From Nostoc sp. PCC 7120 = FACHB-418 (GTDB taxonomy: Bacteria; Cyanobacteriota; Cyanobacteriia; Cyanobacteriales; Nostocaceae), in NCBI RefSeq assembly GCF_000009705.1, contig NC_003272.1:6120001-6152000 (forward strand): 32,000 nucleotides of DNA. Reading direction: 5' to 3'. The position numbers were made by a program, and so were the translations under genes. Shown here one piece after another: positions 11,146 through 28,236 of this stretch. Below the pieces are notes generated by a model. It ran no database searches, was not told where the DNA came from, and worked only from the letters and a program-made list of their open reading frames with translations. Position 1 is the first letter of the stretch. Each line of letters starts with the position of its first letter.

Positions 11146-11151
11146 ATGTCG

Positions 11152-14676: not shown

Positions 14677-14740
14677 AAAAACAATCAGTCCTCAGCTCGT
14701 CAGCTAACAGCTTATAGGGCTGAGGACTGGAGTGTAAAGA

Positions 14741-16008: not shown

Positions 16009-16425
16009 TCCCCTCTTAGCGATAACTACAATTGTTGCAAACTATGTACTAACTTATCAAAATGCTGGTACAGAGAAAAAAAAGTTTGGCTTCTTGGGAA
16101 ATGACAGCGTGTTTTCCAACGCGAATTGTAGTTTGAGTTTCTTTCCTGAAAGCAACCCACACAAAATCAGGTTTTTAACTCTAACTGAACCGTATTGTGC
16201 TGTGATTAGGAATTTTTGTATGTATTTTTCAGGAGTCTTACTGTTTTATTCATGGAAGAAAGTTTGTTACACCTAGAAATCTACTGTGTATGATTTTGTT
16301 AAAACAGTAAGTTGTACGTAATTTATCTACTATAAATAATTATTAAATCAGCATTATTCTACCTTAATTTTTTCGTGACTTATATTTACTCATTCCTGAG
16401 ATTCATTCTGGACAACCGAGAATAA

Positions 16426-16564
16426 AAGTTTGCATTAATTACAAATGAATTAACTATTGCTTTTCAACTATTGTGTTAATCAAGCAACGAGTTGAGCAAA
16501 CAAAACAGGTAATCAACTCAGAGCTTCCAGTCAATTTAAATTGTTAACTACGAGGTTGTCAGTT
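16426..16564 (+). promoter_or_regulatory. conserved upstream module U1 (promoter/5' leader) of the GG-peptide array
   Basis: It shares AAGTTTGCAT..AAATGAATTAACTA..CTATTGTnTTAATCAAGC with 18914-19040 and, more loosely, with 19620-19760. It contains the stem GAGTTGA (16489-95) / TCAACTC (16513-19) and the SD GAGG at 16552-16555. Confidence 0.6.
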
Positions 16565-16807
16565 ATGTCTCACGAATTGTTTATGAACTTATCCGATGAA
16601 CAACAAGCAGTTGTTAAAGGTGGATATGGTACTGATTTTCAAGTCGATTTCACCTTTTATGAAGCAAAGCAGAATGTATTGAATGGTACTACAAGTTCTG
16701 GCCCTAATGGTAGTACTGCTGCTTCTAATGGTACCTCCACCGAGGTTAAGACTGCTGGTCTAGCTTTCTTAGCTTTGGGTGCAGAAGATATTTTAAGTAT
16801 TGCGTAA
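16565..16807 (+). CDS. double-glycine leader peptide precursor, family A copy 1 (bacteriocin/pheromone-like)
   Basis: The leader is MSHELFMNLSDEQQAVVKGG and the core is YGTDFQVDFTFYEAKQNVLNGTTSSGPNGSTAASNGTSTEVKTAGLAFLALGAEDILSIA. The SD GAGG lies 9 nt upstream. The locus carries a C39 ABC exporter. Confidence 0.8.
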   Translation: MSHELFMNLSDEQQAVVKGGYGTDFQVDFTFYEAKQNVLNGTTSSGPNGSTAASNGTSTEVKTAGLAFLALGAEDILSIA

Positions 16808-16850
16808 TCCAGCGATTAAGTTGATTCACAACATCAACTAATCAATCAAT

Positions 16851-16928
16851 ACGTGAGTTGGATGAAATTTGTACAGCCAAGAAGGAATTAGCATATTTTA
16901 TGTGCTTAATTCCTTCTGGAACTCACGT
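16851..16928 (+). other. nested hairpin in array spacer 1 (outer stem ACGTGAGTT/AACTCACGT, inner stem GAAGGAATTA/TAATTCCTTC)
   Basis: The outer stem pairs 16851-59 with 16920-28 and the inner stem pairs 16881-90 with 16907-16. A smaller GTTGAT/ATCAAC hairpin sits at 16820-16838, just after the stop codon. Confidence 0.6.
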
Positions 16929-16974
16929 TACTAATAAGCAAACTAGGTTCATTAAAACTACGAGGTTGTCAGTT

Positions 16975-17211
16975 ATGTCTCACGAATTGTTTATTAACTT
17001 ATCCGACGAACAGCAAGCATTTGTAGCTGGTGGTATTGATTTCCAACTTGATGCTACTTTTTATAAGGCGCAGCAAAATGTATTAAATGGTAGTACAAGT
17101 TCTGGCCCTAATGGTAGTACTGCTGCTTCTAATGGTACCTCCACCGAGGTTAAGACTGCTGGTATAGCCTTCCTAGCTTTAGGTGCAGATGAACTTTTAA
17201 GCATTGCTTAA
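16975..17211 (+). CDS. double-glycine leader peptide precursor, family A copy 2
   Basis: The leader is MSHELFINLSDEQQAFVAGG and the core is IDFQLDATFYKAQQNVLNGSTSSGPNGSTAASNGTSTEVKTAGIAFLALGADELLSIA. I use the internal ATG at 16975, which aligns with copy 1, rather than the track's start at 16858. Confidence 0.8.
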   Translation: MSHELFINLSDEQQAFVAGGIDFQLDATFYKAQQNVLNGSTSSGPNGSTAASNGTSTEVKTAGIAFLALGADELLSIA

Positions 17212-17256
17212 TCCAGTGATGACGTTGAGCTACTACATCAACTAATCAACTAGCAA

Positions 17257-17330
17257 GTGAGTTTGATGGCATCTGCATAGTCATGAAGGAATTAGTTGAT
17301 CTTATTTTTCTAATTCCTTCTGGAACTCAC
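17257..17330 (+). other. nested hairpin in array spacer 2 (outer stem GTGAGTT/AACTCAC, inner perfect 11-bp stem GAAGGAATTAG/CTAATTCCTTC)
   Basis: The outer stem pairs 17257-63 with 17324-30 and the inner stem pairs 17285-95 with 17310-20. A GTTGA/TCAAC hairpin sits at 17224-17242. Confidence 0.6.
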
Positions 17331-17378
17331 GTTACTCATAAGCAAACTAAGTTCATTAAAACTACGAGGTTGTCAGTT

Positions 17379-17615
17379 ATGTCTCACGAATTGTTTATTA
17401 ACTTATCCGACGAACAGCAAGCATTTGTAGCTGGTGGTATTGATTTCCAACTTGATGCTACTTTTTATAAGGCGCAGCAAAATGTATTAAATGGTAGTAC
17501 AAGTTCTGGCCCTGGCGGAAGCACTGCTGCTTCTAATGGTACCTCCACCGAGGTTGAGACTGCTGGTATAGCCTTCCTAGCTTTGGGTGCAGACGAAGTT
17601 TTAAGCATTGCTTAA
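17379..17615 (+). CDS. double-glycine leader peptide precursor, family A copy 3
   Basis: The leader is identical to copy 2. The core differs at three residues (N->G, K->E, L->V). I use the ATG at 17379 rather than the track's start at 17283. Confidence 0.8.
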   Translation: MSHELFINLSDEQQAFVAGGIDFQLDATFYKAQQNVLNGSTSSGPGGSTAASNGTSTEVETAGIAFLALGADEVLSIA

Positions 17616-17657
17616 TCCAGTGATGACGTTGAGCTACAACATCAACTAATCAACTAA

Positions 17658-17737
17658 AAAGTGAGTTTGATGGCATCTGCATAGTCATGAAGGAATTAGC
17701 GGATCTTATTTTTCTAATTCCTTCTAGCACTCACTTT
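17658..17737 (+). other. nested hairpin in array spacer 3 (outer stem AAAGTGAG/CTCACTTT, inner stem GAAGGAATTAG/CTAATTCCTTC)
   Basis: The outer stem pairs 17658-65 with 17730-37 and the inner stem pairs 17689-99 with 17714-24. The outer stem sequence differs from spacer 1, but pairing is preserved. Confidence 0.6.
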
Positions 17738-17777
17738 ACGAATAACTAAGTCCATCAAAAATACAAGGTTGTCAGCG

Positions 17778-18020
17778 ATGTATTGCCAATTATTTATCAA
17801 TTTATCTGATACACAACAAGCAGTTGTTACTGGTGGTACTGATTTTCAACTCGATGCTACTTTCTACGAGACTTATCGCAATGTACTAAATGGTGGTACA
17901 ACTTCCGGCCCTAACGGTAGCACTGCTTTCTCTAACGGTAGCTCCATGAGAATTAAAACTGCTGGACTGGCTTTATTAGCTCTAGATAATGACAAAATAT
18001 GGTCATTGCCAGAAAACTAA
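17778..18020 (+). CDS. double-glycine leader peptide precursor, family A copy 4 (diverged)
   Basis: The leader is MYCQLFINLSDTQQAVVTGG and the core is TDFQLDATFYETYRNVLNGGTTSGPNGSTAFSNGSSMRIKTAGLALLALDNDKIWSLPEN. Confidence 0.75.
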   Translation: MYCQLFINLSDTQQAVVTGGTDFQLDATFYETYRNVLNGGTTSGPNGSTAFSNGSSMRIKTAGLALLALDNDKIWSLPEN

Positions 18021-18114
18021 TCCAGTTATAAGTTGAGCCATGAGCTGTAGGGTCGCATATTTACGCGACTCTACGACAAACAAACAGCAAATTTATGAGC
18101 AGGTAAATACAACT

Positions 18115-18390
18115 ATGTCTCAAAACATCAACCTAAACAAATCTCAGTATCTTCAAGATTTATCCGAACAGGAACAAGAGATTATATGCGGTGGTTATTT
18201 ATTTCCCAACTCTAACATTTTTATGCAAATAACCAATCTTTTAACTACTGCCAAAAGTCAAACGAGTGCTACAGAGGATGATCAAACAATTACATCATAC
18301 CAAGAAACTATATATCACTACACACAAATAACTCTAGTTATTGCATCTTCTAAAGATGATGCTGAAAGCTCATTTGGTAATTATTTTTAG
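18115..18390 (+). CDS. double-glycine leader peptide precursor, family B
   Basis: From the internal ATG at 18115, the leader is MSQNINLNKSQYLQDLSEQEQEIICGG and the core is YLFPNSNIFMQITNLL.... A 10-bp hairpin (gtagggtcgc/gcgactctac) lies at about 18049-18075 upstream. Confidence 0.55.
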   Translation: MSQNINLNKSQYLQDLSEQEQEIICGGYLFPNSNIFMQITNLLTTAKSQTSATEDDQTITSYQETIYHYTQITLVIASSKDDAESSFGNYF

Positions 18391-18630
18391 GCGATGTACT
18401 GTCGGTTTATCTCAATTTCTCTACAAGGTATTTACAGCAGTACAAGCAAAGGACATTCTAAAAAGTTATTTGCTTGTAGTTACTTTTGCACAAATTTGCA
18501 TTTCTTGCTACTGCATATATACAAATATTGAATACATATAAAACAATCAATACTTTAAGAAATTGACATACTAGGCTCAATCCATTCAACATAGTTTGTC
18601 AATCCCATAGATTTGTTCACTCCGTAATTA

Positions 18631-18660
18631 CTGGAACATCAGATGATGTTCCAGTTTTTC
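18631..18660 (+). terminator. Rho-independent terminator after the array and peptide B
   Basis: ctggaacatc-agat-gatgttccag forms a perfect 10-bp stem and is followed by ttttt. Confidence 0.8.
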
Positions 18661-18913
18661 TAATATATAAATCATATAGGCATCCGATTTGATTTGTGAG
18701 AAAATTTAGGTGCCTGAAGCGTTGGTATTGCCTAACATATGCTGTTTTTTATGGGCAATAAACGCCCTACTGCATATCCTGAGATTTTTCAAATGTAAGT
18801 ATGTAAATAAAATTTATATAAAATACAGTATAATTAATGCGTAGTTCATGTCTGTATTTTTATGAAGATTCAATTATATAATTATGTAACTTTATCAGAA
18901 AAAATCGGCAATT

Positions 18914-19040
18914 AAGTTTGCATGAATCATAAATGAATTAACTAATAACTACCAGCTATTGTATTAATCAAGCGAGGATTGAAGAAGCCAATTGAGGGCA
19001 ATCAATCTTCGATATCAATTAAATTACGGAGTTTTTAATT
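18914..19040 (+). promoter_or_regulatory. conserved upstream module U2 of peptide C
   Basis: AAGTTTGCATGAATCATAAATGAATTAACTA...CTATTGTATTAATCAAGC (box at 18964-73). The stem is GGATTGA (18976-82) / TCAATCT (19002-08). The SD GGAG lies upstream of the ATG at 19041. Confidence 0.6.
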
Positions 19041-19277
19041 ATGTCTAACCAATTGTTTAGAAACGTATCTCTTGAGCAACAAGAAATGGTAGTTGGTGCA
19101 AGTGGAAAATTTCAACTATATCCAGAATATCCAGTCAAGGGTAAAGGAAGACAAGAGGGATATCCTGAATATGCTGAAGTTGATAAAGATTTTGTAAAAG
19201 GCGATGGTTTTCCTAAACCTAATAAACCTATTACATCTAATGGGCATATTACATTAAATTTCCACTTTTATTTTTAG
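19041..19277 (+). CDS. GG-type (Gly-Ala) leader peptide precursor, family C
   Basis: MSNQLFRNVSLEQQEMVVGA-SGKFQLYPEYPVKGKGRQEGYPEYAEV.... The leader resembles family A, while the core is unrelated and rich in Tyr, Pro, Lys and Gly. Confidence 0.6.
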   Translation: MSNQLFRNVSLEQQEMVVGASGKFQLYPEYPVKGKGRQEGYPEYAEVDKDFVKGDGFPKPNKPITSNGHITLNFHFYF

Positions 19278-19436
19278 GGTGGAATGAACTGAATTAGTTT
19301 CAACTGATTGTAGAGTTACTCCAATGGATTGATTCTATATCAACATATTTTCTGTGACAAAAATAAAATCCAATAAAGTACTCAAATGAACTATATTTAT
19401 AGTTCATCTGAAATACAAACTTGTCATACTATAGAA

Positions 19437-19468
19437 GCCAAAACATCTAATGATGTTCTGGCTTTTTT
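19437..19468 (+). terminator. Rho-independent terminator after peptide C
   Basis: gccaaaacatc-taat-gatgttctggc forms an 11-bp stem with one mismatch and is followed by tttttt. The stem core is related to the 18631 terminator. Confidence 0.75.
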
Positions 19469-19619
19469 GATATTTTGTCCAAATTTAAATATATAGAAAA
19501 AAATACACATTGAATCTAATTAGATAAATTTTAGTATGATGAACAGAAAAATTATGTCTGTATTTTTCTGAATCTGCACTGATTTAAGTATGTAAATAAG
19601 TTTGATCAAATAGGAAATT

Positions 19620-19760
19620 AATTTGGCACAAAATGTAAATGACTTAGATATTGACTCCTAGTTATTCTTTTAATCAAGCGACACGTTGAGTAGCTTGTAA
19701 GAAGTAATCAACTACCAGCTTGGATTAACCTAAAACAATTCTTTTGACGGAGTAAGAATC
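19620..19760 (+). promoter_or_regulatory. conserved upstream module U3 of peptide D (more diverged)
   Basis: AATTTGGCAC..AAATGACTTAGATA..TTAATCAAGC (box at 19670-79). The stem is GTTGA (19685-89) / TCAAC (19708-12). The SD GGAG lies upstream of the ATG at 19761. Confidence 0.5.
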
Positions 19761-20018
19761 ATGCAAGTTATCGAAAAAAACAATCTGTTTACACAAATTT
19801 CTGTAGAAGAATCTGGAGTAGCTGCTGGGGGAGCTACTGTTTATTTCGATCAATCTATCTATAACTTCATTGTCGGTACTGCAATTGACAAACTATTTCC
19901 TGTTGATCCTCCTACTCTTCTTCAACTCACAGAAATTAGAGAATATGCTGCCCAGAAGTCAATATTCGCTAGTCCTTTTAATGATGTGAACCCAAAATAC
20001 TTCCCACTAGACAGATAG
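19761..20018 (+). CDS. double-glycine leader peptide precursor, family D
   Basis: The leader is MQVIEKNNLFTQISVEESGVAAGG and the core is ATVYFDQSIYNFIVGTAIDKLFPVDPP.... The core N-terminus is paralogous to the 20331 peptide. Confidence 0.6.
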   Translation: MQVIEKNNLFTQISVEESGVAAGGATVYFDQSIYNFIVGTAIDKLFPVDPPTLLQLTEIREYAAQKSIFASPFNDVNPKYFPLDR

Positions 20019-20143
20019 GAGTTTCTGATAATCCAAAATCTGAGGAGATGACATAAAAGTATAAGGCCAGCAAATGGCAACATTAAATTTGTCAACTCTC
20101 TCTAGAAAAACTGGATAATTGGAAAATAAGCAAATTATGGAAT

Positions 20144-20169
20144 ACTGGAACATACTTAAGTGTTCCAGT
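20144..20169 (+). terminator. hairpin after peptide D (ACTGGAACA/TGTTCCAGT), with a weak T-tract
   Basis: actggaaca-tacttaag-tgttccagt forms a 9-bp stem followed by atttcat. The stem shares the CTGGAACA core with the 18631 terminator. Confidence 0.5.
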
Positions 20170-20330
20170 ATTTCATACAAAATTATTGTGAACTGCATAA
20201 ATCAATAAAAATCTGAAATGATTATGAGATAAATATTTTGATTTTATGGCTTTATTTAACTGCATACTAATCCATTATCATATAATACATTTTATCAATT
20301 TCATCACACATAAAACAAGGTAATAAAAAA

Positions 20331-20585: not shown

Positions 20586-20779
20586 TAATAATTCATTAAT
20601 TTGAATTTATTAATTGCCACACTTTTCATCATATTAATTAAGTAGACTAGCGCAAATAAACCGAGGTTTAAAAAAAATAAAGTTCTCTAAAAACCTCTTT
20701 ACCTCTGTCTCCTGCCTTGTCATAACGACAACTTTTAATACCGATGTACTTACCTTATTAAACAAAAACTTGTTTGATC

Positions 20780-22930
20780 ATGAAATATGTTTACGTTCAA
20801 CAACATAGTCAAGAAGATTGTGGTGCAGCTTGTATTGCATCGATCGCCAAACATTATGGACGCAATTTTACTCTCAGCCGTATCCGTGAAGCTGTAGGTA
20901 CAGGGCAATTTGGGACAACTTTATTGGGGTTAAAACGAGGTGCAGAAACACTTGGTTTTAATGCGCGCCCAGTTAAAACTACACCGGAACTTCTAAACCA
21001 AATACATGAAGCGCCTTTACCTGCAATTATTCATTGGAAGGGAAATCACTGGGTTGTTTTCTATGGTAAGAAGGGCAAAAAATGTGTAATCGCAGATCCA
21101 GCCGTTGGTATTCGTTATCTATCTGAGAAAGATTTAGTTGAAGGTTGGACGGATTGGTTAATGCTGTTAGTAGAACCAAATCCAGAACTATTTTGGAAGC
21201 TAGAAGATGATAAAGTTAGCGGCTTTTGGCGTTTCTTTAAACGTGTCTGGCATTTTCGTCATATCTTAGCCCAAGCTATCCCCCTAAATCTACTGTTGGG
21301 GGTTCTATCTTTAGCCTCTCCGTTTCTTTTACAAGTCCTTACCGATGATATTTTAGTCCGGGGTGATACAAGACTACTGACTACGATGGCGATCGCTGTA
21401 TTAGTCATGAATTTAATTTCTAGTAGTCTTTCTTGGGTACAATCAAATTTAATCGCTCATTTTGCCCAAAGACTACAATTAGGATTAGTCTTAGAATTTT
21501 GTCGGCAGATTCTCCAGTTACCCCTGTCATATTACGAATCTCGGCGCAGTGGGGAAATTGTTAGTCGTCTCCGAGATATTAATCAAATTAATCAGTTAGT
21601 CGCTCAAGTCGTTATCAGTTTACCAAGTCGGTTTTTTATTGCGGCTATTTCTTTTTGTATCATGATTTTCTATAGCTGGAAGCTAACAGTAGTAGCCATG
21701 ATTGTATCTGCCTTCATGACTATATCTACTATTGTGTTTCAGCCGACATTGCAGCAAAAAACTCGTGAGCTTTTAGTCAAAGATGCAGAAGCTCAAGGTG
21801 TTTTAGTAGAAACATTTAAAGGCGCTCTTACGGTCAAGACGACCACAGCTAGTCCGCATTTTTTAGATGAATTACAAAGTCGGTTTGGTCATCTTGCTAA
21901 CATCACATTACGGACAATTCAAATTGGGATTATTAATGGTACATTTTCAGGTTTGGTTTCTGGGATTGGTTCGATAGCGTTGTTGTGGTTTGGTGGTAAT
22001 TTAGTAATTAATCCGGCAGAAAATTTGAGTATTGGGAAGCTACTAGCTTTTAACTCAATGAATGGCAACTTTCTAGGATTAATTAGTACTCTGATAAGTT
22101 TTGTTGATGAATTTACTACTGCGAAAACTGCTGTACAAAGGCTCACAGAAGTCATAGATACTACACCTGAAAACGAAGGAGATGGGAAAAAGCCTTTTAC
22201 CTCGATCTCTGGTGATGCTGATATTATTTGTACAAATGTCAACTTTCACTATACTGGTCGAGTTGACTTACTAGAAGACTTTACGTTGACAATTCCTGGT
22301 AGTAAAGTCACTGCTATTATCGGCAAATCGGGATGTGGTAAAAGTACCGTCGCCAAATTAATTACTAGTTTATATACTCTGCAATCTGGGAATATTCGGA
22401 TTGGACTATATAACCTTCAAGATATTGCCCTTGATTGTTTACGCCAGCAAGTAGTTTTAGTTCCTCAAGATGCCCATTTTTGGAGTCGTTCTATTATCGA
22501 AAACTTTCGTTTAGGCTCGCCATTTGTTACATTTGAGCAAATTGTTAGAGCTTGTCAAGTTGCTGGAGCCGATGAGTTTATTGGTAGACTACCTGATAAA
22601 TATCAAACGATTTTAGGAGAATTTGGCGCAAATATTTCTGGTGGACAACGCCAGCGTTTAGCGATAGCTAGAGCTATTGTTACAGAACCACCAATTCTAA
22701 TTTTGGATGAATCTACTGGTGGACTTGATCCAGTGAGTGAAGCCCAAGTTTTAGATGAATTATTACACCATCGCCAAGGTAAAACCACAATTTTAATTAG
22801 TCACCGTCCCAAAGTAATTAATCGGGCTGATTGGATTGTTTTACTAGATCAAGGACGTTTAAAACTTCAAGGTTCCATAGAAGATTTACGGACTAAAGCA
22901 GGAGAGCATTTAGATTTCTTAATTCCTTGA
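20780..22930 (+). CDS. peptidase C39 domain-containing ABC transporter (bacteriocin/double-glycine peptide cleavage and export, ComA/LagD/HetC class)
   Basis: The N-terminal C39 domain keeps the catalytic residues: Q..DCGAAC (QHSQEDCGAACIASIA), GNHWVVFYG and IADP. It has a six-TM ABC core, Walker A GKSGCGKST, signature ISGGQRQR, Walker B ILILDE and H-loop ISHR. I use the ATG at 20780, two codons inside the track's TTG. Confidence 0.9.
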   Translation: MKYVYVQQHSQEDCGAACIASIAKHYGRNFTLSRIREAVGTGQFGTTLLGLKRGAETLGFNARPVKTTPELLNQIHEAPLPAIIHWKGNHWVVFYGKKGKKCVIADPAVGIRYLSEKDLVEGWTDWLMLLVEPNPELFWKLEDDKVSGFWRFFKRVWHFRHILAQAIPLNLLLGVLSLASPFLLQVLTDDILVRGDTRLLTTMAIAVLVMNLISSSLSWVQSNLIAHFAQRLQLGLVLEFCRQILQLPLSYYESRRSGEIVSRLRDINQINQLVAQVVISLPSRFFIAAISFCIMIFYSWKLTVVAMIVSAFMTISTIVFQPTLQQKTRELLVKDAEAQGVLVETFKGALTVKTTTASPHFLDELQSRFGHLANITLRTIQIGIINGTFSGLVSGIGSIALLWFGGNLVINPAENLSIGKLLAFNSMNGNFLGLISTLISFVDEFTTAKTAVQRLTEVIDTTPENEGDGKKPFTSISGDADIICTNVNFHYTGRVDLLEDFTLTIPGSKVTAIIGKSGCGKSTVAKLITSLYTLQSGNIRIGLYNLQDIALDCLRQQVVLVPQDAHFWSRSIIENFRLGSPFVTFEQIVRACQVAGADEFIGRLPDKYQTILGEFGANISGGQRQRLAIARAIVTEPPILILDESTGGLDPVSEAQVLDELLHHRQGKTTILISHRPKVINRADWIVLLDQGRLKLQGSIEDLRTKAGEHLDFLIP

Positions 22931-23047
22931 ATTTTAAGAAAAGTGGGGACTAGGGGTAATGAGAAAGAGTGCAATATGAGTAACTTAGTTTTCCCTGTTC
23001 TCTATTGATTTTTTCCTATTTAAATACTGATAATTATTTGGTGAAGT

Positions 23048-24451
23048 ATGCTGTATATTCAAAATAAGAAACTTATCCCTCCCCTGCAAGATGATGATGC
23101 TTTACCACCAGTTGGTATTTGGACATCTTTGCTGGGGTTATTTCTTGTAGTGTCTGTTGGTTCAGCGATCGCCTTATCCTCATGGATTAAATATAATGTT
23201 GTCATCAAAGCGGCGGCTACTGTTCGTCCTATAGGCGAAACTCGCTTGGTACAGCCAGAAATTGAGGGGACAATTCAGAACCTGTTAGTTACAGAAAATC
23301 AAGTTGTCAAGCGGGGTGATGCGATCGCTACTCTCAATACAGAACAATTACAAATCAAGCAAAGTCAACTACAAGGTAATATCCAACAAATTAAATTACA
23401 GCTTGTCCAAATTGATGCTCAAATCAGTACTTTCAATAGTCAAATACTCGCGGAAACCAAGGTAATTGAGCGTACAGTGGCTTCTGCTCAAGCAGACCTG
23501 GTTCGTAATCAACGAGAATATCAAGAACGTCAAATCACTACACAAAGTGAATATATTGCTTCTGAAGCTAGTTTACAAAAAGCCATAGCAGATTTACGTA
23601 AATCTCAAGCTGATTTGAATTTTGCTAACGCAGATCGCGATCGCTATCAGCAACTAGCTGATATTGGTGCGATTGGTAGGCGGGAATATGAACAGAAAAA
23701 ACTTGTGGTAGAACAGGCTAAATCAGCCTTGGAAGCGGGAAAACGCTCTGTGGAAATTGCTCAAGCCAAAATGCAATCGGCAAAGGCTGGGGTTAATCCT
23801 AGCATGGCAACGGTGGCGATCGCGCAAGAACGTATTGCTCAAGAAGTTGCTAGGGGTGAGGCTACCATCGCTACGTTGCAGAAAGAACAGCAAGCTTTAG
23901 TTCAGCGACGTTTAGAAATGCTTTCCCAACTCAACCAATCCCAAAAAGAATTACAACAAGTAGAAAAGCAACTGCAAAGTAGCGTCATTCGCGCTACCAG
24001 TGACGGGATTATCCTGAAGTTAAATCTGCGGAACCCTGGTCAAGTGGTACGCACTAGTGAGGCGATCGCGGAAATTGCACCACAAAATGCGCCGCTAGTA
24101 GTTAAAGCCATGATTCCCACCGCAGACATTAAAAAGGTGGCGGTGGGGAAGAAAGTCCAATTGCGTGTTAATGCTTGTCCTTACCCAGATTACGGTGTTC
24201 TCCATGCTGTGGTGAGTGCTGTTTCTCCAGATGCGATCGCACCTCAAAATAACAATCCAGGGGGAGCATTGTCGGCTGCTGCAACTCCTTATTTTGAAGC
24301 TACTATCCAACCAGAAAAACTCGCATTTGGGAATGGCGATCGTCAGTGTCATATCCAGTCAGGTATGCAGGCAGAGGCTCATATTATTTCTCAAGAGGAG
24401 ACAGCACTACGATTTATCCTACGAAAAGCAAGACTTATCACTGATTTGTAA
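23048..24451 (+). CDS. HlyD-family membrane fusion/secretion adaptor protein
   Basis: It has an N-terminal TM helix (IWTSLLGLFLVVSVGSAIAL), lipoyl-like strands, a long Q/A/E-rich coiled coil and a C-terminal beta-barrel region. It lies directly downstream of the ABC exporter. Confidence 0.85.
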   Translation: MLYIQNKKLIPPLQDDDALPPVGIWTSLLGLFLVVSVGSAIALSSWIKYNVVIKAAATVRPIGETRLVQPEIEGTIQNLLVTENQVVKRGDAIATLNTEQLQIKQSQLQGNIQQIKLQLVQIDAQISTFNSQILAETKVIERTVASAQADLVRNQREYQERQITTQSEYIASEASLQKAIADLRKSQADLNFANADRDRYQQLADIGAIGRREYEQKKLVVEQAKSALEAGKRSVEIAQAKMQSAKAGVNPSMATVAIAQERIAQEVARGEATIATLQKEQQALVQRRLEMLSQLNQSQKELQQVEKQLQSSVIRATSDGIILKLNLRNPGQVVRTSEAIAEIAPQNAPLVVKAMIPTADIKKVAVGKKVQLRVNACPYPDYGVLHAVVSAVSPDAIAPQNNNPGGALSAAATPYFEATIQPEKLAFGNGDRQCHIQSGMQAEAHIISQEETALRFILRKARLITDL

Positions 24452-24792: not shown

Positions 24793-25452
24793 ATGACCAT
24801 AATCCCGTTTCTGACATCCTATTACAGAGTTCAAAAAGCCCTACAATGGTGGTCTTATAGACAATCGTCTAAATTCATTATGGAGGCTGAAAACATTCGG
24901 GATAGTCTATTACAGGAAACTTTTACCATGCGACGTAACTTAGATTTATTATCTACGAATCCTTGGGAATTATCAAGTGAAAAAATAAAACAATATTTAG
25001 ATAAAGTTGATCATTTGCATCATTCTTTGGTAGACATAAGCGATCGCTTATTTCCTGAGTCGCTACAAGATAGCTTTCCTCTAGCAATTGAGGGATTATT
25101 AAAGTCTTGGCTAGTCGCCAATCCCCATCTATATTTTCATATAGATATGCCCATTTATTGGCGACAAGAACCACCCCAATCTGGTTTAATTATTTTAAAT
25201 TCTCTAGAAGAGTTATTAACAATTACAATTTCCGAGATATTGATGCCTAATTCCATCTATATAAGTCTAAAACAAAAGCAGGAACTAGGACAATTATCTG
25301 TAAAAATAAATTATTCTGAAGTAGGTGCTATTCTTTTTCATTCTAGTTTATCTACCTTGGATCATCTATGTCAAAGTTGTCAATTTTTGACCTCAGCCAA
25401 ATGCTTTTATAATACTCAAGGCTCTAGAGTTTATTGGTACTTCTATTGGTAG
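24793..25452 (+). CDS. HisKA_3-like dimerisation domain protein lacking the phospho-acceptor His (soluble pseudo-histidine-kinase)
   Basis: EAENIRDSLLQETFTMRRNL aligns to the HisKA_3 H-box (..HD.l.Q.l), but Arg takes the place of His. LHHSLVDISDRLFPESLQDSFPLAIEGLL matches the second-helix pattern (R..i..L.P..L.d.gL..Ai..L). The C-terminal half has no recognisable N or G boxes. Confidence 0.55.
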   Translation: MTIIPFLTSYYRVQKALQWWSYRQSSKFIMEAENIRDSLLQETFTMRRNLDLLSTNPWELSSEKIKQYLDKVDHLHHSLVDISDRLFPESLQDSFPLAIEGLLKSWLVANPHLYFHIDMPIYWRQEPPQSGLIILNSLEELLTITISEILMPNSIYISLKQKQELGQLSVKINYSEVGAILFHSSLSTLDHLCQSCQFLTSAKCFYNTQGSRVYWYFYW

Positions 25453-25596
25453 ATATTATCATGAATTTAACGACATTAATCCATTTAAATTGATTTTGCA
25501 TCAAATAGATGTACCTATTGTTTATTACATAAAATATTTTTCGGCAGACATTACAAACAATCACTAGTCAATTATTTGTTCAGCAAAGGATTAATT

Positions 25597-26274
25597 ATGC
25601 AACAGACCATATCTGAAAAAGCACTAAGGAATTTTCTAGTAATTGATGATCATGAATCAGTTCTAAGCGGCACAGTAGAAGTATTAAAAAGACATTATCC
25701 TGAAGGCAATTTTGTCGTAGCGATTAATGCGGAAAGTGCTTTTAATCAGCTAACTATTTGTCCACCAGACCTGATAGTCATGGATCTTTCCATCCCTGAA
25801 AAATTAGGAATTAAAGCCCGCCCAGATACAGGTGTGCGACTGCTGAGAACACTGATGAAAAATTATCCCAGTTTGAACATCATTGTACAGAGCGCTCATA
25901 TTAGAACACTAGTGAGAATCCGACCAGATATTGATACTCATAAGGGAGGTTTCACCGTTGCTGATAAAAGTCTATCTACGCAAGAAATGTTGACTAGAGT
26001 AGATTGGGCATTACAAGGCTTAACTCATACAAAAGATATTAAGGGAATCCATGCGGGACTAGAAATAAAACCAGAATGGTTGAGAGTTTTAACCTTGGCT
26101 TTTGAGGAAGGATTACAAGATAAAGCTATTGCCGAACAAATGTGTATTTCAGAACGCATGGTACGGCATTATTGGAGTAAATTACAAGATGCTTTGGGTG
26201 TTTATCCTGATGAGGGAAAAAATATCCGCATTCAAACCGAAAAGCGGGCTAGAGAAGAAGGGTTGATTGATTGA
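25597..26274 (+). CDS. NarL/LuxR-family response regulator (REC domain plus a C-terminal LuxR-type HTH)
   Basis: REC residues are present: VIDDHE, the acceptor in LIVMDLSIP, IVQSAH and ADKS. The C-terminal HTH is EGLQDKAIAEQMCISERMVRHYWSKLQDALGV. I use the ATG at 25597, which has AAGGA upstream. Confidence 0.85.
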   Translation: MQQTISEKALRNFLVIDDHESVLSGTVEVLKRHYPEGNFVVAINAESAFNQLTICPPDLIVMDLSIPEKLGIKARPDTGVRLLRTLMKNYPSLNIIVQSAHIRTLVRIRPDIDTHKGGFTVADKSLSTQEMLTRVDWALQGLTHTKDIKGIHAGLEIKPEWLRVLTLAFEEGLQDKAIAEQMCISERMVRHYWSKLQDALGVYPDEGKNIRIQTEKRAREEGLID

Positions 26275-26376
26275 AAATGAACATTACATGACTATGAGTA
26301 ATTAATGGTGGTAGTTGATCTATCCCTAATTAATTAAACCTGACCAATTACTCATACTAAAGACTAGGAGAATAGC

Positions 26377-28236
26377 ATGATGCAACCTGGACTTTGGAGT
26401 GGAATTAAAGCAGAAATTGCCATTTGGCGTGTAGGTATATTACCAGGATTAGCAGTCATTGGACTAGTCGTTTTTACAAGACTCATCGGTTCACTAGAGT
26501 CATTAGAATGGATGGCTTTTGATAGCTTCCTACTTTGGCGTTCCGAAGAATCTATAGATGCACGAATTTTGTTAGTAGAAATTAATCAAAATGATAATTA
26601 TTCTCTAACATCAACTATATCAAATAGTAGTTTCATAGGGGTGATAGAGAAGTTACAAGTTTATCAGCCTAAAGTTATTGGTCTAGAAGTTGATCAGCAT
26701 TTACTCATTAATTCTCAAGAGGATAAACTAGCAAAGATTTTCCAAAAGTACAAAAATTTGATTGCTAACGAAAAAATTTTGCCTCTCCAGGTTCATTCGT
26801 ATCTAGATTTACCTAATGAACAGATTACTTTTGCAGACCAAATCCTAGATAATGATGGTAAATCTAGGCGTAGTCTATTGGCAATTAATACATCTAATGG
26901 CTACAAATTATCTTTGGCTATGGAATTAGCAAGAATTTATTTGGCTGAGAAAAATATTAGTTTAGAAAATAGTCGGTTAGGAAAAACGAAACTACCCCGC
27001 TTTTTACCAAACTCTGGAGGATATATCCGTGCTGATGCAAGTGGATTTCAAGTACTAATAAATTTTCGGAGTGGTAACCAAAGATTTAGAACTTTATCTG
27101 GGGAGGACATTAAAAATGGTAAATTTAACCCTGAGTGGATACGCGATCGCATAGTCATTATCGGTATCACAAATACTCACAATCAGGGCTTTATCCCCAC
27201 TTCAGCAATTACATCAGTTAAATCAGCCTCTACACAAGTTAACAAATTGGAAATTCAAGCACACGCCATCAGTCAAATTATTAGTGCTGTGCTTGATGGT
27301 AGACCCCTCATTAATACTTGGAATGATGGATGGGAATATACTTGGATTTTTGCCTGGGGTTTTTTAGGAATAGTGATTGCTAGGTTCACTAAATCCCCAT
27401 TAATAAATTTTTTGGTTGTGGGAATAACTATCAGTAGTTTATTAGTTATTAGTTACCTACTATTAATTTGGGGGTGGTGGGTTCCAGTCATACCTGCAAT
27501 TTTAGTTTTGACCATAAATGGTATGGAACTGATAGCGTTATATCAATATGACCAAGCTTTACGCTTAGGGATGAAAACCCGTCAAGACGTAATAGAAAGT
27601 ACCTTTGAAACTATCCATAACGGCCCACTACAAAGTTTAGCCCAAGTTTTGAAATTGATACGCTGCGAGAATACAAATACTCAGGAATTGCTCCCAAAAA
27701 TTGAAAAAGAACTAGAGAAATTAAATCATGAGCTACGAGGAATTTACGAATTTTTGCAGCAAGAATATCCCAGTCAAGATATCAAGCTCTATTTAGGAAA
27801 TAATTTAGTACTCAGTTTGCAAGATCCACTACACGAAGTCCTCTATCAAGTTTATAGTTACACCTTAGATCGGGAGTTTCCTTGCTTTAAAACAATTAAA
27901 GTTGCTATACGTAGCTTTGAACCAATAGATGAACAAAGCTTAAGTATGGAACAAAAACGAGGAATTTGTAGATTTTTAGAAGAAGCTTTATGTAATGTAG
28001 GTAAACACGCTACTGGAGTCACTAAACTCCAAGTCACTTGCTCGCTAATAGCAGGTTGGTACACGTTGAAAATTATAGATAATGGCTTAGGCGTAAATTC
28101 ATCTAAAAAAGGACGAGGAACCCAACAGTTTATCAATTTAGCACGACAACTAGGGGGAAAATTCCAGCGATCGCCCCAAATCCCCCAAGGAACCATCTGT
28201 GAATTATCTTGGCCAGTCAGCAAGTTTTGGAGATAG
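26377..28236 (+). CDS. CHASE2 sensor domain histidine kinase (HisKA_3/NarX-DesK type)
   Basis: An N-terminal TM helix is followed by a periplasmic domain of about 300 aa and three TM helices (WIFAWGFLGIVIA, LVVGITISSLLVISYLLLIW, VIPAILVLTINGM), which is the CHASE2 topology. The kinase boxes follow: H-box IHNGPLQSLA, N-box EEALCNVGKHA, G1 IIDNGLG and G2 GRGTQQ. A strong SD, AGGAG, precedes the ATG. Confidence 0.85.
   Translation: MMQPGLWSGIKAEIAIWRVGILPGLAVIGLVVFTRLIGSLESLEWMAFDSFLLWRSEESIDARILLVEINQNDNYSLTSTISNSSFIGVIEKLQVYQPKVIGLEVDQHLLINSQEDKLAKIFQKYKNLIANEKILPLQVHSYLDLPNEQITFADQILDNDGKSRRSLLAINTSNGYKLSLAMELARIYLAEKNISLENSRLGKTKLPRFLPNSGGYIRADASGFQVLINFRSGNQRFRTLSGEDIKNGKFNPEWIRDRIVIIGITNTHNQGFIPTSAITSVKSASTQVNKLEIQAHAISQIISAVLDGRPLINTWNDGWEYTWIFAWGFLGIVIARFTKSPLINFLVVGITISSLLVISYLLLIWGWWVPVIPAILVLTINGMELIALYQYDQALRLGMKTRQDVIESTFETIHNGPLQSLAQVLKLIRCENTNTQELLPKIEKELEKLNHELRGIYEFLQQEYPSQDIKLYLGNNLVLSLQDPLHEVLYQVYSYTLDREFPCFKTIKVAIRSFEPIDEQSLSMEQKRGICRFLEEALCNVGKHATGVTKLQVTCSLIAGWYTLKIIDNGLGVNSSKKGRGTQQFINLARQLGGKFQRSPQIPQGTICELSWPVSKFWR

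What the first reader, a model, noticed from the sequence alone, without database searches (positions are those of the whole stretch)
16426..19760. A shared ~130-nt upstream module (TTAATCAAGC box plus a covarying GTTGA/TCAAC stem) precedes three otherwise unrelated peptide cassettes
The regions 16426-16564, 18914-19040 and 19620-19760 align as AAGTTTGCAT..AAATGAATTAACTA..CTATTGTnTTAATCAAGCnAnG-stem-loop-stem...SD-ATG, although the downstream core peptides are unrelated. The stem is GAGTTGA/TCAACTC in U1 and GGATTGA/TCAATCT in U2, where a G->A change on one side is matched by C->T on the other and there is one G-U pair. It shortens to GTTGA/TCAAC in U3. The same GTTGA...ATCAACT half-sites recur after each stop codon inside the array. 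Further upstream, the 15-mer TAAGTATGTAAATAA occurs at both 18796-18810 and 19585-19599. ATGTCTGTATTTTT occurs at 18848-18861 and 19554-19567, with a related TGTATGTATTTTT at 16217-16229. This points to a common promoter/5'-leader cassette into which different peptides have been placed. The palindrome could be an RNA hairpin, or the inverted-repeat operator for the adjacent LuxR-type regulator.
Basis: seen in the sequence. Interest (0 to 1): 0.65.

Follow-up and report, generated by a model that had tools for sequence, protein, structure and literature searches.

The report
Shared promoter-leader module for cyanobacterial secreted peptides
Three secreted-peptide gene cassettes in this Nostoc/Anabaena locus each carry the same ~215-nt non-coding module, conserved across heterocystous cyanobacteria and most likely a regulator-dependent promoter joined to an RNA hairpin leader, which marks the cassettes as one co-regulated set.

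Summary
All quoted coordinates check out.

A motif scan of 185,579 species genomes hit 58 stretches. 56 are cyanobacterial, and the named ones are heterocystous genera. Every assessable copy lies upstream of a GG-leader peptide gene, next to an orthologous peptidase-ABC exporter.

The module has two separable parts.

- **Upstream half (DNA level):** 3-4 direct repeats at a strict 22-bp period. The last repeat abuts a -35-like ATGAmT, followed by 18 nt and a -10 TATTGT. The same element precedes the pseudo-kinase/NarL-type regulator/CHASE2-kinase operon in some genomes. I read it as the binding region of the adjacent regulator; this is inferred.
- **Downstream half (RNA level):** the TTAATCAAGC box and the GTTGA/TCAAC stem form a hairpin that starts at the predicted transcript 5' end. 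Half-site sequence and spacing vary but every copy folds. It also recurs without a promoter between the genes of the tandem array. An RNA hairpin is therefore favoured over a LuxR-type operator.

No TSS or binding data were available. I classify it as a new variant of a known kind (bacteriocin-regulon promoters), of moderate interest.

The parts
16362..16449 (+). U1 upstream half: four 22-nt units R1-R4 (R1 degenerate, CCTTAATTTTTTCGTGAC; R4 GTTTGCATTAATTACAAATGAA)
   Evidence: Column mapping of the 45-copy alignment; upstream-only HMM hit at 16369-16452, E 7e-11
16445..16474 (+). U1 core promoter (predicted): -35-like ATGAAT 16445-16450, 18-nt spacer, -10 TATTGT 16469-16474
   Evidence: Read from the sequence. 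Same arrangement in all 17 copies found through the exporter protein
16476..16526 (+). U1 box TTAATCAAGC (16476-16485; predicted TSS near A16482) and 5' hairpin AAGC..GAGTTGA-loop-TCAACTC..GCTT (16482-16526)
   Evidence: Fold; covariance-model hit at 16481-16531, 50.2 bits
16565..18390 (+). Peptide genes g1-g5 driven by U1: 16565-16807, 16975-17211, 17379-17615, 17778-18020, 18115-18390. g1-g4 form a ~404-nt tandem array
   Evidence: CTB family NF038167; repeat families D1-D3
16805..16838 (+). Promoter-less homologue of box plus hairpin after the g1 stop (TAATCCAGCG..GTTGA..TCAAC). Further copies at 17209-17250 and 17613-17654, and a partial one at 18018-18036
   Evidence: Alignment A3; family D6
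16851..16928 (+). Long intergenic stem-loop of the array, with no U-tract. Equivalent ones follow g2 and g3 (about 17255-17335 and 17658-17737)
   Evidence: Fold z = -5.0, -2.4 and -3.2
16219..16283 (+). Extra partial copy of the upstream repeats (R1 to part of R3), about 150 nt upstream of U1
   Evidence: Upstream-only HMM, E 1e-5
18850..18937 (+). U2 upstream half, units R1-R4 (GTCTGTATTTTTATGAAGATTC ... GTTTGCATGAATCATAAATGAA). A condensed extra R1/R2-like copy lies at about 18783-18815
18933..19011 (+). U2 -35-like ATGAAT 18933-18938, -10 TATTGT 18957-18962, box 18964-18973, hairpin CGAGGATTGA/TCAATCTTCG 18973-19011
   Evidence: Fold z = -3.3; covariance-model hit at 18969-19020
19041..19277 (+). 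Peptide gene g6 (GA-type leader MSNQLF..VVGA), followed by a terminator-like hairpin at about 19437-19468
   Evidence: sequence
19556..19643 (+). U3 upstream half, units R1-R4 (GTCTGTATTTTTCTGAATCTGC / ACTGATTTAAGTATGTAAATAA / GTTTGATCAAATAGGAAATTAA / TTTGGCACAAAATGTAAATGAC)
19639..19728 (+). U3 -35-like ATGACT 19639-19644, -10 TATTCT 19663-19668, box 19670-19679, hairpin 19670-19728 (core GTTGA..TCAAC at 19685-19712)
   Evidence: Fold; covariance-model hit at 19675-19726
19761..20018 (+). Peptide gene g7 (MQVIEKNNLF..AAGG), with a terminator-like inverted repeat at 20136-20177
   Evidence: inverted repeat I9
20780..24451 (+). C39-peptidase ABC exporter (20780-22930) and HlyD-type adaptor (23048-24451)
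   Evidence: Pfam; orthologues downstream of the module in all assessable loci
24793..28236 (+). Candidate regulatory triad: histidine-kinase-like protein without the phospho-accepting His (24793-25452), NarL/DevR-type response regulator (25597-26274), CHASE2 sensor kinase (26377-28236)
   Evidence: co-occurrence with the module

Best explanation
Each copy is a composite cis-regulatory module of a locus conserved across Nostocales: GG-leader 'CTB' peptides, a peptidase-ABC exporter, HlyD, a pseudo-kinase, a NarL-type response regulator and a CHASE2 kinase. In Anabaena PCC 7120 this is the asr5139-alr5148 cluster.

**Part 1, about -117 to -7, acts at the DNA level.** It holds three or four direct repeats of a 22-bp unit (roughly TTTGCA-N5-TGGwAAT). 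All lie on one face of the helix. The promoter-proximal unit abuts a -35-like ATGAmT, then an 18-nt spacer, then a -10 TATTGT. I infer that these repeats are bound by a transcription factor that switches all peptide promoters together. The most likely factor is the phosphorylated response regulator encoded a few kb downstream.

**Part 2 acts at the RNA level.** Transcription is predicted to start at the A of the TTAATCAAGC box. The transcript would then begin with a ~45-nt hairpin whose nearly invariant left arm (AAGCGAGGAGUUGAGCAGC) is paired by a variable right arm. I infer that this 5'-terminal hairpin protects the short peptide mRNAs from 5'-end-dependent decay, or otherwise sets their stability or translation. 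In the tandem array each promoter-less unit keeps its own copy.

**Shown:** conservation, architecture, quantised spacing, folding, genomic association.
**Inferred:** the TSS, the identity of the binding protein, the effect of the hairpin.
For: **Association with peptide genes**
- A 20-base upstream-only pattern gave 58 hits in 185,579 genomes. 56 are cyanobacterial and 2 look like chance hits, against about 4 expected by my arithmetic.
- There are 73 full-length copies. All 69 with a recognisable box are followed, 64-130 nt later, by a GG-leader ORF with a diverse core.
- Copies lie 0.7-4.5 kb upstream of the orthologous exporter, on the same strand.

**Selection rather than recent duplication**
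- Copies are most similar to the copy in front of the same cassette type in another species (0.90, 0.65, 0.76). Paralogues within the window score 0.52-0.61.

**Upstream half (DNA level)**
- Profile autocorrelation peaks at lag 22 in both the 45-copy set and the 17-copy set found through the exporter protein. The summed lags 22+44+66 exceed 999/1000 and 1000/1000 column permutations.
- The distance from block A to the -10 is either 103 nt (38 copies) or 81 nt (23 copies). The difference is exactly one 22-nt unit.

**Link to the regulator**
- The regulator gene is present in all 25 module-bearing loci that reach far enough.
- The one orthologous exporter locus without the regulator and kinase (L004) also lacks the module.
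- The upstream half alone precedes the pseudo-kinase/regulator/kinase operon and an S8 peptidase gene in Floridanema (nhmmer 1e-8 and 1e-9).
- Block A, with at most 1 mismatch, precedes the pseudo-kinase gene in L066 and the exporter gene in L005.
- The regulator is NarL/DevR-type.

**Hairpin (RNA level)**
- Every one of 67 distinct copies folds: mean z = -3.1, and 90% are below -2.
- The 5'-most paired base lies within CAAGC or the following base (positions 1-6 from its C) in 66 of 67.
- All 95 covariance-model hits are on the peptide strand, at module or array-intergenic positions.
- Cells with a change on both sides of a pair number 52, against 33.5 after shuffling (0/500).
- The array intergenic regions align to the box plus hairpin, and this is kept in other Nostoc arrays.
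- The distance from the -10 to the ATG varies continuously from 81 to 101 nt, unlike the quantised upstream spacing.
Against: - No TSS data could be read. The Anabaena dRNA-seq paper is not held and the paper database failed repeatedly.
- No binding data exist for the adjacent regulator. The only published binding to the asr5139 promoter is by the FurA, FurB and FurC proteins in EMSA, with expression changes under 2-fold (PMC12267927).
- In the PCC 7120 window itself the upstream repeats are not detectable before the exporter, pseudo-kinase or regulator genes.
- U1 has a degenerate R1-R3.
- RNAalifold predicts no consensus structure.
- Fixed-register pairing is only 69.5%, against 66.7% after shuffling.
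- G-U pairs do not outnumber A-C mismatches (54 against 71), so strand-specific RNA selection is not shown.
- The 22-bp lag taken alone is only marginal against the maximum over all lags (p about 0.04-0.07).
- Part of the conservation at AAGTTTGC, ATGA, TAnnnT and CAAGC in the 58 scanned loci was imposed by the search pattern.
Confidence: 0.62

Rival explanations
1. The GTTGA/TCAAC palindrome is a DNA operator (lux-box-like inverted repeat) for the adjacent LuxR/NarL-type regulator, placed just downstream of the promoter.
For: Both arms are fairly conserved in sequence, and the motif is over-represented in the window (8 against 0.69 expected). There is no excess of G-U over A-C, so a DNA-level reading is not excluded by strand asymmetry.
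Against: - Only 31 of 67 copies keep both half-sites, and their spacing ranges from 15 to 20 nt.
- Whole clades replace the half-sites yet still fold: GGGGG/CCCCC in the Dolichospermum group, GCGAG/CTCGC in the Tolypothrix group, CGAGGA/TCCTCG in the U2 type.
- The element recurs between array genes, far from any promoter.
- A 22-27-bp centre-to-centre distance is atypical for a GerE-type dimer (my knowledge).
Confidence: 0.08
2. The upstream repeats are real protein-binding sites, but for a regulator other than the neighbouring response regulator, for example Fur-family proteins or another global factor.
For: FurA, FurB and FurC all shifted the asr5139 promoter fragment in EMSA (PMC12267927). 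In the window the repeats are absent from the regulator's own promoter.
Against: - Expression of asr5139 changed less than 2-fold in the fur variant strains (PMC12267927).
- The element is found only in this locus type and co-occurs with the regulator triad.
- It precedes the triad operon itself in L066 and L068.
- It is lost together with the triad in L004.
Confidence: 0.2
3. Transcription starts further upstream, for example near the conserved GGTAATTAAG of unit R3 using an alternative sigma factor. The TATTGT, the box and the hairpin would then all lie inside a long leader RNA.
For: GGTAAT is strongly conserved, and from memory it resembles -10/-12 elements reported for cyanobacterial group-3 sigma factors. 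Some copies also have a TATAAT-like hexamer about 30 nt upstream of R1.
Against: - The conservation pattern ATGAmT / 18 variable nt / TAtnnT / 6-7 nt / purine is that of a sigma-70-type promoter.
- In several genomes a terminator abuts R1, so no upstream promoter is universal.
- In S. elongatus, inactivating sigF1 raises expression of the GG-peptide operon rather than lowering it (PMC11345509).
Confidence: 0.1
4. The similarity is only a by-product of recent duplication or gene conversion of peptide genes, and has no regulatory meaning.
For: Tandem duplication is clearly active in the locus (404-nt array).
Against: Each copy is closer to its counterpart in other species than to its paralogues in the window. 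The blocks are conserved across many genera, with variable DNA between them. Spacing is quantised.
Confidence: 0.02

Closest known systems
Shared response-regulator-dependent promoters of class II bacteriocin and competence regulons in Gram-positive bacteria (pln, blp, com; direct repeats about 21 bp apart bound by PlnC/D, BlpR, ComE). Recalled from my own knowledge, not checked here.
   Same: Several GG-leader peptide operons in one locus each carry the same conserved upstream cassette of helically phased direct repeats next to a weak -35. A C39-peptidase ABC exporter, an accessory protein and a kinase/regulator pair are encoded alongside. In some genomes the regulatory operon carries the same element.
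   Different: The regulator is NarL/DevR-type rather than LytTR. The kinase has an extracytoplasmic CHASE2 domain. A pseudo-kinase is part of the unit. No inducer peptide is identified. The organism is a Gram-negative cyanobacterium. There is an additional conserved 5' hairpin. Binding is untested.
BvgA-activated promoters of Bordetella (fha): NarL-family dimers bound side by side about every 22 bp, from a distal primary site down to the -35. Recalled from memory, not checked.
   Same: The regulator family is the same. The repeats have a 22-bp period and span about -117 to -30. The most conserved unit is the distal one. Half-sites resemble TTTCC/GGAAA.
   Different: The internal dyad symmetry of the units is unclear here. 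No footprint exists. The organisms and target genes are unrelated.
5'-terminal stem-loop mRNA stabilisers (E. coli ompA leader, B. subtilis aprE leader, cryIIIA STAB-SD). From my own knowledge.
   Same: A hairpin begins within a few nucleotides of the predicted 5' end of a short, presumably abundant mRNA. The left arm contains an SD-like GAGGAG.
   Different: The 5' end is predicted, not mapped. No half-life data exist. The same hairpin is also reused inside a polycistronic array.
RiPP and bacteriocin precursor families with a conserved leader and hypervariable core, such as the prochlorosin procA genes. From my own knowledge.
   Same: Paralogous precursor genes share the 5' part (here promoter, leader RNA and leader peptide) and differ completely in the core.
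   Different: This is a CTB-type leader with no modification enzymes in the locus. The genes are clustered beside the exporter rather than dispersed.
Synechococcus elongatus ebfG1-4 / pteB / hlyD biofilm operon (PMC4997328, PMC11345509)
   Same: GG-motif small secreted proteins with a C39-ABC exporter and HlyD. Expression is controlled by an extracellular signal through an unidentified mediator.
   Different: It is a single operon, with no adjacent two-component system and no reported shared upstream module. The Anabaena cluster was only proposed as a homologue (PMC12267927).

Membership tests
Sigma-70-type (group 1/2) promoter | -10 hexamer TAnnnT at a fixed position, conserved across copies | tested here: met
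   All 17 copies found through the exporter protein have TAT..T at the same column. In the scanned set this was partly imposed by the pattern.
Sigma-70-type (group 1/2) promoter | -35-like hexamer 16-18 nt upstream of the -10 | tested here: met
   ATGA[AC]T (4 of 6 to TTGACA in the ATGACT form) lies 18 nt upstream in U1, U2, U3 and the consensus. The generic scanner reported only U3, with different hexamers.
Sigma-70-type (group 1/2) promoter | Primary transcript 5' end 6-8 nt downstream of the -10 | not testable with these tools
   The dRNA-seq data set for Anabaena PCC 7120 is not held, and supplement look-ups failed.
Response-regulator-activated promoter with phased tandem sites | Repeated motif at an integral number of helical turns, reaching the -35 | tested here: met
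   Lag-22 autocorrelation with its harmonics; stacked units; 81 or 103 nt quantised spacing.
Response-regulator-activated promoter with phased tandem sites | Binding of the cognate phosphorylated regulator | not testable with these tools
   Only co-occurrence is available: 25 of 25 loci, plus one joint absence.
Gram-positive-type bacteriocin regulon (pln/blp/com) | LytTR-family regulator | tested here: not met
   The best solved relative is DevR/DosR, of the NarL/LuxR family.
Gram-positive-type bacteriocin regulon (pln/blp/com) | The same element upstream of the regulatory and transport operons (autoinduction loop) | tested here: inconclusive
   Present before the pseudo-kinase operon in L066 and L068, and before the exporter gene in L005. 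Not detectable in the PCC 7120 window.
lux-box / NarL-type inverted-repeat operator (for the GTTGA/TCAAC palindrome) | Conserved half-sites at fixed spacing | tested here: not met
   Both half-sites are kept in 31 of 67 copies, with spacing of 15-20 nt.
Structured RNA element (conserved hairpin) | Folding better than shuffled sequence in all members | tested here: met
   Mean z = -3.1; all below -1; 90% below -2.
Structured RNA element (conserved hairpin) | Compensatory base changes above the control | tested here: inconclusive
   29 against 21 double-change cells (7/500). 52 against 33.5 (0/500) on a model-fitted alignment. RNAalifold finds no consensus. No G-U excess.
Any Rfam family, including riboswitches and cyanobacterial RNA motifs | Covariance-model match | tested here: not met
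   No match at gathering score over the whole window, and none at E <= 1 for 16100-20800.
Intrinsic terminator / attenuator | G+C-rich stem followed by a U-tract | tested here: not met
   No T-run follows the module hairpins. The scanner reports terminator-like sites only elsewhere.
CTB family bacteriocin precursors (NF038167 / PF28158) | Whole-protein score above the curated cut-off | tested here: met
   g1, g2 and g4 score 70-89 bits against a cut-off of 32; g3, 96% identical to g2, was not scanned. g5, g6 and g7 match only in the leader and fall below the cut-off; g8 has no hit.

The most novel reading that the evidence does not exclude
Heterocystous cyanobacteria carry a peptide-signalling circuit of the Gram-positive 'bacteriocin regulon' type, built from different parts. 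A CHASE2 kinase, a pseudo-kinase and a NarL-type regulator would sense a secreted signal, possibly one of the CTB peptides. They would then switch on all peptide promoters together, through 22-bp-phased sites. A 5' hairpin reused in every transcription unit and every array unit would set mRNA stability. This would be an autoinducing, quorum-like peptide regulon in cyanobacteria, with a readable cis-code.
Probability: 0.3. Interest if true: 0.72.

Novelty: new variant of a known kind. Interest (0 to 1): 0.5.

Why it matters
The asr5139-alr5148-type cluster is one of the most conserved peptide-export loci of Nostocales; the exporter is about 80% identical across genera. It has been proposed to encode bacteriocins or biofilm-matrix proteins, but its regulation is unknown (PMC3140520, PMC12267927).

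The module gives that question a concrete handle:
- a defined promoter architecture with countable 22-bp units;
- a named candidate regulator triad next door;
- a separable RNA element.

These make direct tests possible: unit deletions, hairpin compensatory mutants, regulator knock-outs and peptide add-back. The module also offers a sequence signature for finding GG-peptide genes that annotation misses or mis-starts.

If the regulator link holds, it would be a rare example of a peptide-linked two-component regulon in cyanobacteria, where cell-to-cell signalling is poorly understood.

Tried and rejected
- **Rfam:** no hit at gathering score or at E <= 1.
- **RNAalifold on the MAFFT alignment:** no consensus structure, because clades use different pairing registers.
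- **G-U against A-C asymmetry, to fix the transcribed strand:** no signal.
- **Generic promoter scan:** fewer sites than in shuffles. Only U3 was picked up, with a different hexamer choice.
- **Palindrome TTTCnGAAA as a stand-alone site:** not enriched in the window (38 against 26.5).
- **Profile self-comparison for inverted repeats in the upstream half:** only AT-rich, inconsistent matches.
- **HLR1 (RpaB), NtcA and group-3 sigma (SigF/SigJ) motifs:** considered by eye and from memory. HLR1 and NtcA do not fit. The sigma idea is kept only as a minor rival. The S. elongatus data argue against SigF driving GG-peptide operons.
- **Upstream-half HMM against the window:** nothing before the exporter, pseudo-kinase, regulator or kinase genes.
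- **BLASTP of the 219-aa protein against the kinase:** nothing. Pfam, NCBIfam and PDB sequence searches were also empty. Only the predicted fold was informative.
- **ORFs inside the module:** none shared by the three copies.
- **Mobile-element reading:** rejected. There are no terminal repeats, orientation and position are fixed, and no copies occur elsewhere.
- **TSS data:** the Mitschke 2011 paper is not held. The sRNA-prediction supplement does not list these genes. The supplement of PMC12267927 is not held.
- **Paper database failures:** searches failed. The BvgA, pln/com and J-box comparisons therefore rest on memory.
- The metagenome scan was not used, because it would add sequences but no new kind of evidence.

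Full report
**1. What the window is**

The region holds eight small genes with double-glycine (GG/GA) leaders:
- g1 16565-16807
- g2 16975-17211
- g3 17379-17615
- g4 17778-18020
- g5 18115-18390
- g6 19041-19277
- g7 19761-20018
- g8 20331-20585

g1, g2 and g4 score as 'CTB family bacteriocin' NF038167 (g3, 96% identical to g2, was not scanned); g5-g7 match it only in the leader, and g8 has no hit.

Downstream come five further genes:
- a C39-peptidase ABC exporter (20780-22930);
- a HlyD-type adaptor (23048-24451);
- a 219-aa protein with no family hit (24793-25452);
- a response regulator (25597-26274);
- a CHASE2 sensor kinase (26377-28236).

The exporter is 100% identical to a protein cluster whose longest contig is 6,413,771 bp. 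From my own knowledge, that is the chromosome length of Anabaena/Nostoc sp. PCC 7120. The gene pattern and ORF lengths fit the published asr5139-alr5148 cluster. That cluster is 'group III' in PMC3140520 and is discussed as a candidate EbfG/PteB homologue in PMC12267927.

**2. Checking the observation**

- TTAATCAAGC occurs exactly three times in 32 kb, only at the three sites.
- The repeat finder groups 16426-16503, 18914-18991 and 19620-19697 as one family at 76% and 64% identity (D4), and MAFFT aligns them.
- GTTGA-N8-25-TCAAC occurs 8 times against 0.69 expected.

Four corrections are needed.
- The homology is longer than stated. It runs about 65 nt further upstream, and downstream through the Shine-Dalgarno region into the leader codons.
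- The peptides share a homologous ~20-aa leader. Only the cores are unrelated.
- The 15-mer at 18796 is out of register with the module. It belongs to an extra partial upstream copy, like the one at 16219-16283.
- No ORF is shared by the three copies, and no Rfam family matches.

**3. Is it more than a local duplication?**

Orthologous loci were fetched through the exporter protein, so their selection did not depend on the motif. They came from Nostoc, Cylindrospermum, Trichormus, Calothrix, Anabaena, Scytonema, Brasilonema and another Nostocales strain.
- They show the same gene order.
- Together with the window, they contain 17 module copies in front of GG-peptide genes.

I then scanned one genome per species (185,579 species) with a 20-base pattern taken only from the non-coding part: AAGTTTGC-N11-ATGA-N20-TAnnnT-N4-7-CAAGC.
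- It hit 58 stretches. 56 are cyanobacterial, and all named ones are heterocystous genera.
- The other two, an alphaproteobacterial MAG and an Endomicrobium MAG, show only weak, partial profile matches (E 5e-6 and 8e-4) and look like chance matches. About 4 are expected by my arithmetic.

A profile built from the hits finds 73 full-length copies.
- All 69 with a recognisable box are followed 64-130 nt later by an ORF with a GG/GA leader and a very diverse core.
- Wherever the fetched stretch reaches far enough, an exporter orthologue (74-86% identical) lies 0.7-4.5 kb downstream on the same strand.

Over the non-coding stretch, each window copy is most similar to the copy in front of the same cassette type in another species:
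- U1 to Nostoc parmelioides, 0.90;
- U2 to Nostoc TCL26-01, 0.65;
- U3 to Nostoc TCL26-01, 0.76.

Paralogues within the window score only 0.52-0.61. The copies are therefore old paralogues held by purifying selection, not recent duplicates.

**4. Anatomy**

The consensus, from 45 copies and separately from the 17 copies found through the exporter protein, reads:

TGTATTTTTCGGAAAT .. cacTGACnTAATTnTGnAAT .. TTTCTAAAttTGGTAATTAAGTTTGCA nAAAnTGnAAATGAcT - 18 variable nt - TATtgT - ATTAA(T)CAAGCGAGGAGTTGAGCAGC - variable loop - GCAATCAACT..AGC - variable - SD - ATG

*(a) Upstream half*

Profile autocorrelation over this stretch peaks at lag 22 in both data sets.
- The harmonics 22+44+66 together exceed 999/1000 and 1000/1000 column permutations.
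- The single best lag is only marginal (p about 0.04-0.07).

Stacked in 22-nt rows, the units read:
- R1 gTaTGTATTTTTCGGAAAT
- R2 ACTGaCgTAATT.TGcAAT
- R3 .TTTTCTAAAttTGGTAAT
- R4 GTTTGCA.AAAaTG.AAATGAC

This gives a unit of roughly TTTGCA-N5-TGGwAAT. R4 runs into a -35-like ATGAmT.

The strongest evidence is quantised spacing. The distance from block A to the -10 hexamer is 103 nt in 38 copies and 81 nt in 23 copies. The short class (the Dolichospermum/Aphanizomenon group) lacks exactly unit R2. By contrast, the distance from the -10 to the ATG varies continuously from 81 to 101 nt.

Strict, unit-wise spacing on one helical face, ending at a -35/18-nt/-10 arrangement, is what a promoter activated by tandemly bound regulator dimers looks like. 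That comparison is my inference.

*(b) Downstream half*

From the CAAGC of the box onward, every one of 67 distinct copies folds into a hairpin of at least 8 bp.
- Folding scores are mean z = -3.1, all below -1, and 90% below -2.
- The 5'-most paired base lies within CAAGC or the following base (positions 1-6 from its C) in 66 of 67.

The left arm is almost invariant. The right arm pairs with different parts of it in different clades:
- TCAACTCC with GGAGTTGA;
- CTCGC with GCGAG;
- CCCCC with GGGGG;
- TCAATCTTCG with CGAGGATTGA, in U2;
- an 11-bp GTAAGCAAAAA/TTTTTGCTTAC extension in one Scytonema.

Only 31 of 67 copies retain both GTTGA and TCAAC, and then at 15-20 nt spacing.

Formal covariation is modest.
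- On a plain alignment, 69.5% of cells are paired against 66.7% after shuffling, and 29 cells changed on both sides against 21 (7/500).
- On a model-fitted alignment of 91 sequences, 52 cells changed on both sides against 33.5 (0/500).
- RNAalifold gives no consensus.
- G-U pairs do not outnumber A-C mismatches.

A covariance model of box plus hairpin finds 95 hits in 678 kb of fetched loci. All are on the peptide strand, at module or array-intergenic positions.

**5. The 'half-sites after each stop codon'**

The intergenic regions of the g1-g4 array align with U1 from the -10/box onward. ..ATTGC(G/T)TAATCCAG(C/T)G..GTTGA..TCAAC.. corresponds to TATTGTGTTAATCAAGC..GTTGA..TCAAC. The array's stop codon TAA sits inside the homologue of the box.

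The tandem unit is therefore the transcribed unit (hairpin, leader, gene) without the upstream repeats. The same arrangement, stop codon followed directly by GTTGAGCAGC..GCAATCAAC, is kept in arrays of other Nostoc species.

A hairpin retained where there is no promoter argues for an RNA-level role. Each array intergenic region also carries a second, long stem-loop without a U-tract (z down to -5.0).

**6. Link to the neighbouring regulators**

- The regulator's best solved relative is DevR/DosR, aligned through the C-terminal HTH. That places it in the NarL/LuxR family.
- Its gene is present in all 25 module-bearing loci that extend far enough.
- The only orthologous exporter locus lacking the regulator and kinase (Scytonema sp. 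HK-05, L004) has a GG-peptide gene but no module.

The 219-aa protein was followed up separately.
- It forms a family with no informative annotation, seen almost only in these cyanobacteria.
- Its predicted structure (pLDDT 80.8) is a DHp helical hairpin plus a kinase-type ATP-binding domain, closest to DesK (Foldseek E about 5e-7).
- From my own reading of the alignment, the position of the phospho-accepting His in the DesK-type H-box is an invariant Leu.
- It is therefore most likely a pseudo-kinase.

The triad of pseudo-kinase, regulator and CHASE2 kinase also occurs without peptides or exporter (L069, L070), and in Floridanema (L068).

In Floridanema, the upstream half of the module precedes both an S8-peptidase gene and the triad operon itself (nhmmer 1e-9 and 1e-8).
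- This means repeats, -35-like hexamer and -10, but no box-hairpin.
- The copy before the triad operon is shorter by about one 22-nt unit.

Block A, with at most 1 mismatch (about 0.006 expected in the DNA searched, by my arithmetic), also lies upstream of the pseudo-kinase gene in Brasilonema (L066) and of the exporter gene in Calothrix (L005). Weaker matches precede the pseudo-kinase gene in L067 and a DUF928 gene in L069 and L070.

The upstream half therefore travels with the triad, and the hairpin travels with the CTB peptide mRNAs. In the PCC 7120 window, however, no such element is detectable before the exporter or regulator genes.

**7. Most likely mechanism**

- The module is a regulator-dependent promoter fused to a conserved leader.
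- A dimeric transcription factor occupies the 22-bp units down to the -35 and recruits RNA polymerase to an otherwise weak promoter. Most probably this is the adjacent NarL-type regulator after phosphorylation by the CHASE2 kinase, with the pseudo-kinase as a modulator. The five-gene array and the two single-gene cassettes would then be switched together.
- Transcription is predicted to start at the A of CAAGC, 7-8 nt after the -10. The mRNA would begin with the hairpin.
- By analogy with 5'-terminal stem-loops that block 5'-end-dependent RNases (from my own knowledge), this would stabilise the small mRNAs.
- The promoter-less copies inside the array could do the same after processing.

Shown: conservation, architecture, spacing, folding and association. 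Inferred: the TSS, the identity of the binding protein and the hairpin's effect.

Published data add only two points.
- FurA, FurB and FurC shift the asr5139 promoter in vitro, with expression effects under 2-fold (PMC12267927).
- CTB genes are induced under long phosphate starvation in Nodularia (PMC9846622).

**8. Comparison with known systems, and novelty**

In function, the module resembles the shared regulator-dependent promoters of Gram-positive bacteriocin and competence regulons. In its spacing it resembles BvgA-type NarL-family promoters. Both comparisons are recalled from memory, because the paper database was down.

It is not a member of the Gram-positive set: the regulator is not LytTR-type, and the kinase and pseudo-kinase differ. 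The palindrome fails the test for a lux-box-like operator. The hairpin matches no Rfam family and is not a terminator.

I found no description of this module in the searchable literature. Only three papers mention the six gene names searched, and none deals with upstream sequences. The search was cut short by database failures.

I class it as a new variant of a known kind. It is a solid comparative finding of moderate interest. Its main value is to make the regulation of a widespread cyanobacterial peptide-export locus directly testable.

Noticed in passing
window 24793-25452 (+): The 219-aa protein has no family hit, but its predicted fold is a DesK-like histidine-kinase core (DHp plus ATP-binding domain; pLDDT 80.8). 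The position of the phospho-accepting His appears to be an invariant Leu, which suggests a pseudo-kinase. Together with the NarL-type regulator and the CHASE2 kinase it forms a conserved three-gene unit. That unit is also found in loci without peptides or exporter (L068, L069, L070).
   Followed up: partly
window 16800-18040 (+): The ~404-nt tandem array units start at the homologue of the -10/box. The stop codon TAA of each array gene lies inside the sequence that corresponds to the TTAATC of the box. This suggests the array arose by unequal crossing-over between the promoter-proximal TATTG and a similar string at the gene's 3' end.
   Followed up: partly
window 16851-16928, about 17255-17335, about 17658-17737 (+): Long stem-loops without a U-tract lie between the array genes (fold z = -5.0, -2.4, -3.2). 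Their start, ACGTGAGTT, is conserved in arrays of other Nostoc species. They may be processing or stabilising sites.
   Followed up: partly
window 16219-16283 and about 18783-18815 (+): Extra partial copies of the upstream repeats lie 70-150 nt upstream of U1 and U2. They may be additional distal sites, or remnants of lost cassettes.
   Followed up: partly
window 20331-20585 (+): g8 has no module and follows the g7 terminator. Yet peptides with the same core type (..NFDLN.YLF.LG.G..) are preceded by full modules in other genera (for example L016, L041, L048, L059).
   Followed up: no
window 16858-17211, 17283-17615, 18040-18390 (+): The longest ORFs for g2, g3 and g5 (117, 110 and 116 aa) begin far upstream of the conserved SD and MSHELF/MSQNIN start. 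The 'alr' names used in the literature imply these long versions were annotated. The true products are probably 78-91 aa.
   Followed up: no
L004 (Scytonema sp. HK-05) 8500-14700: This is an orthologous exporter plus HlyD locus with one GG peptide. It lacks the module, the pseudo-kinase, the regulator and the kinase all together.
   Followed up: yes
L069 13494-13552; L070 13620-13711: In two metagenomic loci that have the regulator triad but no peptides, a weak block-A match (TGTATTTTTCGGTCAC) lies upstream of a DUF928 gene. In several genomes DUF928 and a CHAT-domain gene neighbour the locus. They may belong to the same regulon.
   Followed up: no
L005 (Calothrix sp. NIES-2098) 9784-9861: A copy of the upstream repeats, without box or hairpin, lies about 200 nt upstream of the exporter gene (nhmmer E 1.4e-8). 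In this genome the exporter may be co-regulated with the peptides.
   Followed up: partly
window 18630-18655, about 19437-19468, 20136-20177 (+): The three terminator-like hairpins after g5, g6 and g7 share the motif (A)CTGGAACA..TGTTCCAG(T). Each cassette therefore also has a related 3' end.
   Followed up: no
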